DNA from: Octopus vulgaris
Lineage: Eukaryota
Length of the DNA stretch: 64,000 nt
Assembly: GCA_951406725.2 (NCBI GenBank)
Contig: OX597821.1
Coordinates: forward strand, 109,678,001-109,742,000
Reading direction: 5' to 3'
Below are positions 8,824 to 59,374 of the stretch, in pieces. The notes under the pieces were generated by a model. It made no database searches, was not told the DNA's origin, and saw nothing but the letters and a program-made list of their open reading frames with translations. A program made the translations under genes and the position numbers. Each line of letters starts with the position of its first letter. Positions within the stretch are counted from its first letter, which is position 1.

Positions 8824-8940
8824 AAATCTGACAGCTGTTTCGGCAGTGAGGGCAGTCATACCTCATTTAACCTATAAGCCATAAAGGCAGGTATAAATGA
8901 GGCATTAACAAGGATGCCCCACGGCCTCTTCAGAGAATTT
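8824..8940 (-). ncRNA. Type I hammerhead ribozyme motif
   Basis: Minus: tct CTGAAGA ggc(cgtggggca...tgccctcact)gcc GAA ACAGCTGT C aga. Intact core, long nested stem II, palindromic stem III, GUC triplet. Confidence 0.8.
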
Positions 8941-9461
8941 AATTTGTTATAATTGTGAAAAAGATTATTTAACCATATACATATAAATATAATACAATAG
9001 ATGAACTGATTGTTTGGCAATTTTTAACATCTATGTATTAGTCTTGTTGGGTACCTATCTAGCAGTATATTGGATATATATTATCCCATGGTAATGTTGA
9101 ATTTTCAACCCCTATATATTTATATATATATATATATATATATATATATATATATATATATATATATATATATATATACACATATATATATAGTGTGATA
9201 TTTGTCTGTATATATATATATATGTATATATATATATATAGCGAGGTTAGTGAAAGTATTATAATTTTATTGTAAATTCGTTTGCAACTATCTTCGGGGA
9301 GAGTCTTATGTCTATATATTCAGACATGATCGTTCATCGAGTTACAAGATATCAGCTGCAGTAAAAAGAAAGATATCGCCAAGATTTAACATTCACGCAT
9401 ACGCACAAACACTTATACATACACACACACACATACACACTCAAGTATATGTGTATATGAT

Positions 9462-9819
9462 GAGGCGCAATGGCCCATTTGCTAGGGCAGCGAACTCGCA
9501 TCGTAGCATTGCAATTTCGATTGACCGATCGAGCGAAAACACCAAAAGCTCCACGAATATTGGCAGGGGGCGGTGGCAAACCCTGACGTACTCTTTCACC
9601 ACAACCTTCTCTCACTCTTTCTTCCTGTTTCTGTTGTACCTGTATTTCAAACGGACCAGTCTTGTCGCACTCTGTGTCACACTGAATCTCCCAGAGAACC
9701 ACGTTAAATGTACACGTGTCTGTGGAGTGCTCAGCCACTTGCACGTTAATTTCACGAGCAGGCTATTCTGTTGAACGGATCAAATGGTACCATGGTCATC
9801 GCAACCGACGGAATGCCAC
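9462..9819 (+). mobile_element. SINE family B, tail type 1
   Basis: Colinear with 1479-1833 and extends to ...caaccgacggaatgccac. Confidence 0.85.
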
Positions 9820-10292
9820 GAAATGTATGTATGTATAAATGTATTTAAAACAAGATTAGAAATGGCATTTCTGATATTATTTCCACTTTAATAATTAAAT
9901 GTTTATGAAGTATTTATACACACACACACACACACACACACATATATATATATATATATATGTATGTGGGTATCTGTATGTTTATATGTATAGATGTGTG
10001 TATGTACGTAGGTACGTACGCATGTATATTGTATATATGTACGTACGTATGAATGTATATATGTATGTATATACGTATGTACGTATTTATGGATGTATGT
10101 GTGTGTTGTGTATGCATGTAAATGTATAAGTACATAGGTGGCCGATCCTTCGAAGTCACTATCAACCTCTTGAAAAAGTTTCTGAAACGTGCACTCGAGG
10201 AAAAGTAATGATAATTCTTCAGTTTACGATAAGGTCAAGTTGTTTTTATAAATAACTTGCCACACAAAAAATAATCATACACACACACAAAT

Positions 10293-10667
10293 GTACGGGT
10301 ATATAGCTGTGTGGTAAGATGATTGCTTCCCAGCCACATGGTTTCGGGTTCTGTCCCAATGTGTTGCACCTTGGGCAAATATCTTCTATTATAGCCTCGG
10401 GCCAACAAATTCCTTTTAAGTGTGTTTGTTAGACGGAAACTGATAGAAGACTGTCGCATAAGCCTGTGTGTGAGTGCGTGTCTGTGTCTACATTTCTTCC
10501 CATCTGCACTGCTTGACAACCGGTGTTGATGTGTTTACGTCCCTGTAACATAGCAGTTCGACAAAAGATTTTGTTAGAATAAATACTGGGATCGATTTGT
10601 TTAACTAAAATTCTTCAAGGCAGTGCCCCAGCATGGCCGCAATCTAATGATTAAAACAAGCAAAAGG
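10293..10667 (+). mobile_element. SINE family C, diverged full-length copy
   Basis: gctgtgtggtaag...accttgggcaaatatcttc...gacggaaactga, internal TG tract, gcttgacaaccggtgttg...cagcatggccgcaatctaatga. Confidence 0.85.
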
Positions 10668-10765
10668 TGTGTATATATATATATATATATATATATATAT
10701 AGTTGAAATTTACAGGAAAAAATGAAGACAGGTGTATTAGTTTGACGCTCGGAAAGGTGAGAAAG

Positions 10766-10803
10766 TCTTTTACGTTTCGAGCCTATGCTCTTCAACTGAA
10801 AGA
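10766..10803 (-). ncRNA. Ultra-minimal hammerhead-like motif with variant core
   Basis: Minus: tcttt CAGTTGAA gagc atag gctc GAAACGTA aaaga; same family as 46718-46755. Confidence 0.45.
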
Positions 10804-11096
10804 AACACAAGGAAATAAACAGAGAGTGAAAAATATATATACATACATGTATACATATAAACATATATTTCCAATGATAAGGCCGAATTTTATAACTCTG
10901 CTTTACTTAAAGCAGGTTATACAGAGAAAGTTACCTACACTTATTCCATTCTATCTCATTCTACCTTTACTAATGGAGATAGGAAATCTAGTTGTAAGGA
11001 TATAAACAATATCAATTTTAATTTATACGCCAACACTAAAAAGAGGAGGGAGAAAACCCTTATTTAATCCCCTATTTTCGTTTTAAAGGTAAATCT

Positions 11097-56199: not shown

Positions 56200-56900
56200 C
56201 ACCTACATACGTCCGTACATACATACGTACATACATACATACACATATACATATATATACATACGTATGTACATACATACATACATACATACATACATAC
56301 CTACATATATACCTACATATATACCTACATACATACCTAACTACCTACCTACATACATACATACATACATAGTACGTACACATAGACCTACGTACATACA
56401 TACACACATACATATGTACGTACAATATACATACGTGCATACATACATACATACATACATACATACTTACATACTTACCTACCTACCTACCTACCTACAT
56501 ACATACATACATACATACATACATACATACATACATGCATGCATACATGCATACATACATACATGCACACATACATACATGCATACATACATGCACACAT
56601 ACATACATACATACTTACATACATACCTACCTACCTACCTACATACATACATACATACATACATACATACATACATACATACATACATGCATGCATGCAT
56701 ACATGCACACATACATACATGCACACATACATACATACATACATACATACATACATACATGCACACATACATACATACATACATACATACATGCATACAT
56801 ACATACATGCATACATACATACATACATACATACATACATACATACATACATACATGCATACATACATGCATACATACATACATACATACATGAATACGT
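56200..56900. repeat. (ACAT)n/(ACCT)n/(GCAT)n field with an internal higher-order duplication of about 155 bp
   Basis: The variant pattern repeats, visible as MHAYMHTYIHAHIHT twice in the 56535 frame. Confidence 0.85.
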
Positions 56901-58354
56901 ACATACATATATGGATATATTAACACAGATATACACGGATATATAGACAGGCAGAGAGGCAGAGAGAGAGAGAGAGAGAGAGAGAGAGAGAGAGAGAGAG
57001 AGAGAGAGAGAGAGAGACATCTACATATGTTAGATAATAGCAGCTAAGGCGGCGACATGTCGTTTGCAAGAGACAACTAACTTTATTCACATATTACATG
57101 GGACCTCAATGTACTTGGTAACCTTTGGAGATAGAAAGAGGGTGAAAGTGTGAGAGGGAGGAGGAGAGAGGAGCTTAGACTTCCTGTGCACGTGTGCTTC
57201 TCTGTCAAAGACTCACACAGATATATATATATATACATACATACATACATACATATATATATATATATATATATATATATATATATATATATATATATAT
57301 ATATACACTGTACATTGTAGAGACAATACAGAGCTCATAGACAAATACAACACACGCGCACACACATATTCATACACACAGACGCATAACACACACACAC
57401 ACACACACACACACACACATTCAGACGTAACAGATACACTCTCATATGTATATGCACCTACCAACAGGCCAAACACACAGCTGTGGATCCATGTATGTAT
57501 GTGTATGTGTGTGTGTGTGTGTGAGTAGGTTATGTTTGTATATATCTATATATTCATATATATATATATATATTCATATGTATGTATATACATATATATA
57601 CTCATATATATATATATATATATATATATATATATATATGTACATATGTATGTACATATATATATATATATACATACCTATCCAAATACCTATATATGTA
57701 TGTGTGTATATATATATATATACATATGTATGTATATACATATATACTCACACATATATATATACATATGTATATACACATATATATATACATACTTATC
57801 CAAATACCTATATATGTATGAGTGTATATATATATATATATATATATATATATATATATATATATATATATATGTATGTATGTATCTACGTATGTATGTA
57901 TGTATATAGGTATGTAAGTATGTAGAACATTTGTAAGTTCCGATTTAATATATTGATGTCTCTCTTCCTCACACTCTCTTTCTCCCTCTTCGTCGTATAT
58001 ATGTATGTGTGTATATATATACGTGTATATATATATTTTTATATATATATATATATATGCATGTATATATATAATGTATGTGTATGTATATATACGTGTG
58101 TTTATACGTTTGTGGATGCGTGTGTTTGTGTATGGGTATGTGTGCGTATAATGGTTAAGAAGAATAGTTCAGAACCACTTGCTTTGTTATGTGTGTAAAC
58201 AGACTGTCCACTTAATTCCTCTGGGATCGGTCAACTAATTATGAACACTTGTGATGAGAGTCTAATAAAGCTCAAAAATCGATTTAGTCTTTGCATCACT
58301 TTCTCAGACATCGACAGAGAAATAGTTTTTGCCTCGTATACAGAGGCGGCGTAT

Positions 58355-58768
58355 GGATGCAGGCGTGGCTCTTTGGTAAGAAGCTTGCTTCCCAACCTTA
58401 TGGCTGCGGGTTCAATCTCACCTCGTTCACCTCCGGCAAGTATTCATCGACCAAACCCTTGTGAGTTGTTCCGCCAGACGGAAATTGAAAGAAGCCCGAC
58501 ATATATTTATCTATAAATATCTCTGTGTGTCTGTGTGTGTCTGTGTGTGTCCGTCTGCCTGTATGTATGTCTTTGTTCCCACTACTGCTTGGTAACCGGT
58601 GTTGGTGTGCTTACGTCCCCGTACCTTAGCGGCTCAGCAAAAGAGACCAATGGAACAAATACCAGATTTAAAAAGAAATAATAACTGGGGTCGATTCACT
58701 CTACTAAAAATTCCTCAAGGTGGTGCACCAGCATGGCCGCAATCCAATGAGTGAAACAAGTAAAAGAT
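58355..58768 (+). mobile_element. SINE family C, diverged copy
   Basis: gcaggcgtggctctttggtaagaagcttgcttcccaacc...gacggaaattgaaagaagcccg...cagcatggccgcaatccaatgagtgaaacaagtaaaaga. Confidence 0.85.
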
Positions 58769-58891
58769 ACAGATATACATAAATCCATTGATAAATATGT
58801 GTGTGTATGTACGTATATAAATAGTAATGGTAAGACAACAAAAGAATGAAAGAGACTTCGATATTATGTAAATAGAGGAATTTATCTGTAA

Positions 58892-59284
58892 CTAGCAGTA
58901 TCGCCCGGCGTTGCTCGGGTTTGTAAGGGAAATAACTATATAAGCATTTTTAGAGAGTTATAGCCAAAAAATAGCAACAAAAATGGAAAAAAGAAAGATG
59001 GTAAATTTTTTGGGGGGGGAGTTAAAAAGGTCGAGTTGCGTCCCCTAGACTGTCTGTGGTTTGTGTTCCTGATTCTCGACCCCATGTCGAATTTATCGAT
59101 TTTTTTTCAGAACTGGGGGAACTTTTCAAAATTTTCGCTGCGTTAGTTTTGAATTATGACATTGGGCTATGTGTGTGTGTCAAGTTTCATCAGAATCGGT
59201 TGAAAGCCGTGGTCAGGGTGAGGGTACGAGAAAACAGACACACAGAAACACGCACAGACAAACTGCCGTTTATATATAGAGAGA
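58892..59284 (-). mobile_element. Non-autonomous Helitron inserted in a pLTR-like stub
   Basis: 5' TC, 3' hairpin cccgagcaacgccggg + CTAG, A|T target, no TSD; the terminal 80 bp or so are almost identical to 6543-6625. Confidence 0.88.
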
Positions 59285-59315
59285 TATAATATGTGACAAT
59301 TATTCGGTTGCCATA

Positions 59316-59374
59316 ATAAGACTCCGAGTTTCGGATGTCGGGACGGAAACCTGCTCCGGCATCTCGTCAGTTAT
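59316..59374 (-). ncRNA. Type I hammerhead ribozyme motif
   Basis: Minus: ataa CTGACGA gatg(ccgg...ccga)catc c GAA ACTCGGAGT C ttat. Near-palindromic stem III, GUC triplet. Confidence 0.75.

What the first reader, a model, noticed from the sequence alone, without database searches (positions are those of the whole stretch)
8824..59374. Many unrelated hammerheads, each family with its own palindromic stem III
Seen: stem III is ACAGCUGU (8824), ACAUGU (12110), AAAUAUUU (20656), ACAAUUGU (34837), ACUGAUCAGU (37313), ACGGUGCAUCGU (44879, 45370), ACUCGGAGU (59316) or ACGU (10766, 35245, 46718, 51663). The flanks are mostly non-homologous and several loop II regions are unusually large. Known: minimal Penelope hammerheads have palindromic stem III and cleave as dimers. 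Inference: the palindrome could act as a family-specific pairing code, so that only like-with-like RNAs activate each other in a genome crowded with competing families. About 12 motifs in 64 kb would imply a very large genome-wide ribozyme load.
Basis: partly seen in the sequence, partly recalled or inferred. Interest (0 to 1): 0.72.

Follow-up and report, generated by a model that had tools for sequence, protein, structure and literature searches.

The report
Penelope hammerhead swarm, shared palindromes
The twelve motifs are real hammerhead-shaped end pieces of nine repeat families, six of them tied here to Penelope-like jumping genes; their palindromes likely let two copies pair and cut, a published design, but unrelated families share palindromes, so they are unlikely to be a selected family code.

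Summary
All 12 sites are type-I hammerhead motifs of dispersed repeats (6 strict hits against 0.23 in shuffles). They form nine families, not twelve. Two palindromes were misread: 12110 (family ACAUGUGU, window copy broken) and 20656 (AAUAUU). Six families lie beside Penelope-like RT or GIY-YIG ORFs, several with Hydra-clade motifs; 44879/45370 is a retrozyme-like 491-bp tandem. Palindromy is a real constraint: 18 of 20 hits of a palindrome-blind scan of 1 Mb, and paired double changes between sister subfamilies. It is no unique code: ACGU, ACAAUUGU and ACAGCUGU each recur in three lineages, no rarer than chance. In a swapped dimer stem I also pairs across molecules and is predicted to block 224 of 231 cross pairs, so like-with-like pairing is likely a by-product of divergence. 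Dimer cleavage, palindromes and many families per genome are published. This scan reached the same verdict on other DNA. Worth a look: a recent ACAAUUGU-to-ACGAUCGU switch and lineages with fixed core changes. No cleavage was shown here.

The parts
8827..8936 (-). Hammerhead, family A: CUGAAGA, 85-nt stem-II domain, palindrome ACAGCUGU (8831-8838), predicted cut after 8830
   Evidence: fold z -6.3; 40 best genomic hits 98-100% identical; PLE RT+EN ORF ends about 2 kb upstream in L401 and L402
10766..10803 (-). Hammerhead, family B, damaged core CAGUUGA, palindrome ACGU (10772-10775)
11040..11843 (+). 3' part of a Penelope-like ORF with GIY-YIG-like endonuclease, upstream of the family C hammerhead
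   Evidence: ORF; Atlas GIY-YIG clusters at 0.94-0.95 (a lead); same spacing in 11 of 30 family loci; no Pfam hit
12116..12204 (+). Hammerhead, family C, broken copy (ACAUGUAC at 12190-12197; family majority ACAUGUGU)
20655..20705 (+). Hammerhead, family D: swapped core GUGAACA (G3-C8), palindrome AAUAUU (20692-20697), 7-bp stem I
   Evidence: fold z -2.6
34837..34921 (-). Hammerhead, family E: palindrome ACAAUUGU (34842-34849), intact
   Evidence: EN ORF about 1.1 kb upstream in 6 of 30 loci
35016..35103 (+). Inverted second copy of family E, ending inside the palindrome
35245..35279 (-). Hammerhead, family K: core CCGAAGA (U4C), palindrome ACGU (35250-35253)
37313..37388 (+). Hammerhead, family F: palindrome ACUGAUCAGU (37374-37383), unpaired A before G12; within an inverted repeat 37083-37480
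   Evidence: PLE-like RT beside 2 of 30 loci
44577..45705 (+). 491-bp tandem repeat (2.3 units, 99% matches), family G, retrozyme-like; decayed inverted copy at about 44274-44577
44879..44985 (+). Hammerhead G, unit 1: palindrome ACGGUGCAUCGU (44965-44976), 8-bp stem I
   Evidence: fold z -3.9
45370..45476 (+). Hammerhead G, unit 2, identical; the only close same-strand partner pair in the window
46718..46755 (-). Hammerhead, family B: core CUGUUGA (A6U), palindrome ACGU (46724-46727)
51663..51706 (+). Hammerhead, family H: palindrome ACGU (51698-51701), stem I weakened in this copy; within an inverted repeat 51582-51759
   Evidence: EN ORF about 0.3 kb upstream at one genomic place (L017/L028)
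59315..59375 (-). Hammerhead, family I: odd palindrome ACUCGGAGU (59321-59329)
   Evidence: PLE-like ORF start downstream in L301, EN upstream in L302 and L310

Best explanation
The twelve motifs are the hammerhead-bearing terminal repeats of nine repeat families, six tied here to Penelope-like retrotransposons, left mostly as truncated single or inverted copies; their loopless palindromic stem III likely exists so that two copies of the same element can swap strands and cut as a dimer, and cross-family pairing is predicted to fail as a by-product of divergence in both stem I and stem III rather than through a selected palindrome code. Shown: motif anatomy, repeat nature, 5' truncation, ORF linkage for six families, palindromy beyond chance, paired changes, shared palindromes. 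Follows from the double-hammerhead topology: stem I is intermolecular too. Inferred: cleavage, dimer formation, a partner supplied in cis by a tandem repeat, and silence of single copies.
For: Palindrome-blind scan of 999,800 random bases: 18 of 20 hits palindromic (at most 1 mismatch) against 5 of 23 in 8 shuffles. Variable 5' and fixed 3' ends; inverted halves; (TA)6+ next to the 3' end in 21-28 of 30 loci for six families against 22% background. PLE-like ORFs beside families A, C, E, H, I, F. Paired changes ACAAUUGU/ACGAUCGU and ACGGUGCAUCGU/ACGGUAUAUCGU, the latter always changing together in contigs of three other organism labels; wobble intermediates exist (ACAUGUGU; ACGAUUGU in 3 of 100 rows, the mismatched ACAAUCGU in 0). 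Monomer hairpins are impossible or at -0.1 to +6 kcal/mol, dimer helices -4 to -22. 12 shared-palindrome pairs among 30 lineages, no fewer than chance; 224 of 231 pairs have at most 2 bp in one stem I. Literature: palindromic helix III, dimer activity, many families per genome (PMC4209133; PMC7229834; PMC3088659 Fig S8 legend).
Against: No cleavage or RNA was shown here. Helix III contributes as much predicted discrimination as stem I (8.9 vs 8.4 kcal/mol; only 11 of 231 pairs are penalised by less than 1 kcal/mol), and between sister subfamilies E/E' and G/G' the palindrome is the only discriminator (about 4.5 kcal/mol). Two of only three differences in 116 nt between E' and its nearest sister are the palindrome pair. 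All 27 inverted pairs among 100 rows had matching palindromes. No ORF link was found for B, D, G or K; links for F and H rest on one or two places. Same-strand tandem partners are rare in the E clade (1 among 100 rows), and a PLE hammerhead needed the element's protein and was dispensable for insertion in vitro (PMC11167929), so the purpose of cleavage is open. Energies are nearest-neighbour sums over 6-nt arms without tertiary contacts.
Confidence: 0.72

Rival explanations
1. Selected pairing code: palindromes diverge under selection so that only like RNAs activate or load together.
For: Conserved within families; sister subfamilies differ mainly at the palindrome; 27 of 27 inverted pairs match, and the one pair with halves of different flank type shares its palindrome; HIV-1 DIS palindromes bias co-packaging 2.3-fold (PMC3605237 passages).
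Against: Palindromes are shared across unrelated lineages no less often than chance; the most abundant lineages B, K and H (18, 18, 19 copies per Mb) all use ACGU; changes follow the ordinary A-U, G-U, G-C path; 0 mixed pairs of 27 is expected with P 0.35 if a tenth of pairs draw a second RNA at random.
Confidence: 0.12
2. The palindrome is mainly an RNA-dimerisation or protein-loading handle for the element's RT dimer, and cleavage is secondary or lost in some lineages.
For: Abundant lineages carry fixed core changes while keeping stem II, GAAACGU and stem I: A6U in 16 of 17 and U4C in 11 of 15 random-sample copies; changes at these positions lower activity (A6C, U4C in PMC3088659); catalytic mutants did not affect insertion in vitro and the protein is predicted to be a dimer (PMC11167929).
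Against: Most lineages keep a perfect core, and family D and clusters 10 and 17 keep the 3-8 pair by compensation (G3-C8, U3-A8), which points to selection on catalysis.
Confidence: 0.2
3. Families with long palindromes (F, G, I; 9-12 nt) cut as monomers through a small hairpin, so pairing is optional for them.
For: 3-4 bp with a 3-4-nt loop is geometrically possible; invertebrate retrozymes cleave as monomers (PMC7229834); large loop II could supply tertiary contacts.
Against: Hairpin energies -0.1 to +2.1 kcal/mol against -14 to -22 for the duplex; the G-family change at the centre (GC to AU) keeps self-complementarity in what would be the loop.
Confidence: 0.12
4. Chance matches in AT-rich repetitive DNA.
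For: Three window copies are damaged; 7 of 12 single strands fold no better than shuffles; one catalogue singleton was a false hit on an abundant repeat.
Against:: enrichment over shuffles and intact family majorities.
Confidence: 0.01

Closest known systems
Minimal and small-palindromic-helix-III hammerheads in pLTRs of metazoan Penelope-like elements (Cervera and de la Pena 2014, PMC4209133, parts 1-2 of 4 read; Lunse, Weinberg and Breaker 2017, not held, seen only as cited in PMC6765202)
   Same: Type I, loopless palindromic stem III, extra nucleotide between 9 and 10.1 in the ACGU families, many families per genome, mostly single truncated copies, opposite-strand pairs, U3-A8 variant, compensatory changes.
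   Different: Palindromes up to 12 nt and stem-II domains of 47-85 nt in five families; fixed G3-C8, A6U and U4C cores, which I did not find reported as natural PLE variants (searches; supplements not read).
Hydra clade of C-terminal-EN PLEs (Craig et al. 2021, PMC8557442, passages read)
   Same: RT then GIY-YIG; CxCX5C linker (A, E, H), RWK and DKT (ORF beside an F copy), CxxC and CxH around conserved E and N (C, E), (TA)n targeting, hammerhead in the repeat.
   Different: No tree against reference proteins was built; the family C fragment lacks CxCX5C; H shows no (TA)n bias.
Animal non-LTR retrozymes (PMC7229834 passages; bioRxiv 10.64898/2026.07.22.740005, parts 1-2 of 5)
   Same: Family G: ORF-less tandem units with one type-I hammerhead each, dispersed arrays, PLE-like inverted 5' copy.
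   Different: 491-bp unit, above the 170-400 nt first described but inside the 51-972 bp range of the 2026 preprint; circles and transcription not shown.
HIV-1 dimerisation initiation signal (PMC3605237 passages)
   Same: Works like it in one respect: a palindrome whose identity biases RNA partner choice.
   Different: Unrelated system; here the palindrome completes a catalytic core, and no partner bias was measured.

Membership tests
Type-I hammerhead | Core CUGANGA / GAAA / UH with a 3-8 pair | tested here: met
   Family majorities A, C, E, F, G, H, I canonical; D G3-C8; B A6U and K U4C deviate
Type-I hammerhead | Stems I and II around the core | tested here: met
   Family majorities 3-8 bp stem I and 4-7 bp stem II; broken in window copies 12110 and 51663
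Type-I hammerhead | Self-cleavage after H17 | not testable with these tools
   Only contigs were served; they cannot show RNA ends
PLE dimer-type hammerhead | Palindromic stem III with little or no loop | tested here: met
PLE dimer-type hammerhead | Cleavage as a dimer | not testable with these tools
   Predicted from energies only
Penelope-like element | RT plus GIY-YIG ORF in line with the repeat (families A, C, E, H, I, F) | tested here: met
   weak RVT_1 hit E 0.0085; Atlas leads; thin for F and H
Penelope-like element | RT plus GIY-YIG ORF (families B, D, G, K) | tested here: inconclusive
   None in 30 loci each of B, D, G (1.5-kb flanks); K not searched genome-wide
Penelope-like element | 5' truncation with inverted or tandem partial copies | tested here: met
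Hydra clade | CxCX5C linker, RWK, DKT, CxxC/CxH, no CCHH, (TA)n target | tested here: met
   Motifs read by eye against the description; TA adjacency; partial per family
Hydra clade | Placement in the RT tree | not tested
   No reference proteins in hand
Non-LTR retrozyme (family G) | ORF-less tandem repeats each with a type-I hammerhead | tested here: met
Non-LTR retrozyme (family G) | Linear and circular monomer RNA | not testable with these tools
   No RNA holder on record
Family-specific palindrome code | Palindromes unique to, or over-dispersed among, co-resident lineages | tested here: not met
   12 shared pairs among 30 lineages vs 8.7 or 2.5 expected

The most novel reading that the evidence does not exclude
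The stem-III palindrome acts like a retroviral dimerisation signal: the Penelope RT dimer loads two RNAs through it to build head-to-head insertions, and a paired switch such as ACAAUUGU to ACGAUCGU cuts a newborn subfamily off from its parent, a molecular speciation step among retrotransposons that can be read from genome-wide counts of mixed insertions.
Probability: 0.12. Interest if true: 0.62.

Novelty: new member of a known kind. Interest (0 to 1): 0.24.

Why it matters
Its use is as a natural series: sister subfamilies that differ almost only in the palindrome, and abundant lineages with altered cores, would make it directly testable whether PLE hammerheads choose partners and whether cleavage matters to these elements, both open questions.

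Tried and rejected
Rfam scan: swamped by microsatellite matches, no hammerhead in the 150 rows shown. Pfam found no family for the endonuclease pieces and only weak RVT_1; PDB sequence search gave nothing useful. My first label 'Neptune' was dropped after reading the clade motifs. L374 looked like a mixed E/E' insertion but is two insertions separated by TA repeats. The loose neighbour scan was spoiled by a too-permissive anchor for family C and was not used for pair counts. CpG decay as the source of the E/E' change was rejected: the tree places ACGAUCGU as derived (one gain, 97/95 support, bootstrap not settled). Candidate 32752: no relatives in the loci held, rejected; 60645 lies in a transposase ORF. 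Sequencing runs: no RNA holder listed, contigs only; no statement on expression. Lunse et al. 2017 is not held, so whether it discusses cross-family pairing or these core variants is unseen; supplements of the papers were not read. Searches for a published palindrome code found none; for hammerheads in octopus retrotransposons only the two papers listed. Dropped rows: 15 singleton clusters (51 matches, 40 from one false hit) from the load count; 7 of 15 singletons, judged doubtful by eye, from the sharing test.
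Full report
Setting. The window is G000:C8:109678001-109742000 of a 2.8-Gb, 227-contig animal assembly, 36% G+C and full of microsatellites. Earlier AI notes call the genome an octopus; I did not test this.

Observation. Every cited place holds a type-I hammerhead outline. A descriptor asking for at most one core mismatch, stems I and II of 3 bp or more and a palindromic stem III passes 6 of the 12 sites, against 0.23 on average (max 2) in 60 shuffles. 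The other six fail for reasons that family alignments explain: damage to the window copy (10766, 12110, 51663), a swapped G3-C8 core (20656), or a family-wide bulge next to the core (37313, 59316). The sites fall into nine families: A 8824, B 10766/46718, C 12110, D 20656, E 34837, K 35245, F 37313, G 44879/45370, H 51663, I 59316, with K counted as a distant relative of B; counted apart they are ten.

What carries them. Copies share a fixed 3' end and vary at the 5' end, often come as inverted pairs and mostly end in (TA)n (A 28, F 28, E 27, B 27, C 23, I 21, D 15, G 14, H 1 of 30 loci; background 22%). A GIY-YIG-like ORF lies 0.25-0.35 kb upstream in 11 of 30 C loci, including the window (11040-11843), about 1.1 kb upstream in 6 of 30 E loci, and about 2 kb upstream in two long A copies, one with a 743-aa RT-plus-EN frame. 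H, I and F have the same kind of ORF at one to three places. Pfam support is weak; Atlas look-alikes are RVT_1/HTH_animal and GIY-YIG clusters. The motifs read by eye (CxCX5C, RWK, DKT, CxxC/CxH) match the Hydra clade as described in PMC8557442. No ORF was found for B, D or G in 30 loci each; K was not searched. G is a 491-bp ORF-less tandem with 40 of 40 best hits identical, a retrozyme-like derivative.

Is the palindrome constrained? Yes. A scan that does not ask for a palindrome found 20 hits in 999,800 evenly sampled bases, 18 palindromic with at most one mismatch (four from one tandem locus, two from another); 8 shuffles gave 23 hits, 5 palindromic. Within families it is kept: A 13 of 13, E 27 of 31, F 25 of 31, B 47 of 52, I 27 of 41, C 25 of 36 distinct copies (sets lean to best hits and include the window copy). 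Between sister subfamilies it changes in pairs. ACGAUCGU arose once inside the ACAAUUGU tree of E (61 rows, 97/95 support, rough bootstrap), and the pair makes up two of three differences in 116 nt to the nearest sister; it has 357 exact genomic matches. In the first 100 of 575 matches of a centre-free pattern, 72 read GAUC, 25 AAUU, 3 the wobble GAUU and none the mismatched AAUC. G has a sister with ACGGUAUAUCGU, whose two changes go together in contigs of three of four other runs.

Is it a family code? Not by the tests I could run. A relaxed catalogue of all DNA held (262 distinct hits, 20 multi-copy clusters, 15 singletons) shows ACGU, ACAAUUGU and ACAGCUGU each in three lineages, and ACAUAUGU, ACGAUCGU and ACCGGU in two. 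Among 30 lineages 12 pairs share a palindrome; random palindromes of the same lengths give 8.7 with AC..GU fixed and 2.5 with A..U fixed; at least one shared pair (B, K) is by descent. The most abundant lineages all use ACGU. In a strand-swapped double hammerhead, one molecule's 5' arm pairs with the other's 3' arm, so stem I is intermolecular as well (follows from the topology). Of 231 pairs among 22 lineages, 224 keep at most 2 bp in one stem I. Helix III penalises cross pairs about as much (median 8.9 against 8.4 kcal/mol), so like-with-like pairing is predicted, from two helices, as any divergence would give. One unrelated pair (A and cluster 14) is predicted fully compatible. For E/E' and G/G' the palindrome is the only discriminator, about 4.5 kcal/mol. 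All 27 inverted pairs among the 100 rows match in palindrome, but with a tenth of pairs drawing a random second RNA only one mixed pair is expected (P of none 0.35): inconclusive.

Load. Strict motifs: 18 per Mb, about 50,000 (30,000-80,000, clustering ignored). Copies by homology to the 20 multi-copy clusters, decayed ones included: 91 per Mb (bootstrap 66-120), about 250,000, a lower bound since the catalogue leans to window families. The window has 14 in 64 kb (219 per Mb; chance of 12 or more about 0.06), so extrapolating from it overshoots about twofold.

Mechanism. Likely: a tandem pLTR transcript brings two like hammerheads together, the palindrome forms a shared helix III, and both cut after H17, perhaps with the element's protein (needed for cleavage of an anole PLE hammerhead, PMC11167929 passages). 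Single and inverted genomic copies would be silent; in the window only the G pair has a close same-strand partner. Palindromes likely drift through G-U intermediates; one-step template switching is an untested alternative. Cleavage, dimers and expression are inferred, not shown.

Known work. PMC4209133 reports these motifs, palindromic positions 15.2-16.2 and loop 3, consensus families with compensatory changes, weak dimer activity, and 2,000-9,000 copies per genome; PMC3088659 shows palindromic stem III across repeat-type hammerheads; PMC7229834 gives 16 families in one coral. I found no paper proposing a palindrome code, with Lunse et al. 2017 unseen. Earlier notes of this scan reached the same verdict on other DNA; I saw them after my own tests and do not count them as support.

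Verdict. Real, largely known, not a unique code; interest 0.24. The E/E' switch and the fixed core variants are the leads worth keeping.

Noticed in passing
window 46718-46755 and 10766-10803 (-); random sample L151-L250: Family B has core CUGUNGA (A6U) in 16 of 17 random-sample copies, with position 7 varying; an abundant lineage (about 18 per Mb) with a core change expected to weaken cleavage.
   Followed up: partly
window 35245-35279 (-); random sample: Related family K has CCGACGA (U4C) in 11 of 15 random-sample copies.
   Followed up: partly
window 20662-20668 (+): Family D fixes a G3-C8 swapped core (31 of 39 copies GUGAACA); the double change partly rescues activity in vitro (PMC11167929). 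Noted before by this scan.
   Followed up: partly
L376, L380, L386-L400; G000 C1-C2 rows: Young E' subfamily with a paired palindrome switch; wobble intermediate present, mismatched intermediate absent in 100 rows; one inverted pair has halves of different flank type but the same palindrome.
   Followed up: partly
window 3290-3345 (+): Decayed thirteenth copy, of family K, with the GAAACGU part broken.
   Followed up: yes
window 60609-61415 (+): Tc1/mariner-type transposase frame (HTH_Tnp_Tc3_2 and DDE_3); a second mariner-like fragment at 29573-29953 (-), recognised by eye.
   Followed up: no
window 3644-4702 (-), 50041-50496 (-), 54036-54428 (+), 26830-27885 (-): Fragments of non-LTR retrotransposon ORFs (weak zf-RVT hit; restriction-like endonuclease motifs recalled).
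   Followed up: no
L372, L380, L396, L398: Family E ORFs carry a long asparagine-rich linker between RT thumb and endonuclease, with open frames up to about 1,090 aa, and 3' regions of 1-2 kb before the hammerhead in A and E.
   Followed up: no
window 40858-41376: 184-bp tandem (2.8 copies, 98%) of an abundant short repeat.
   Followed up: no
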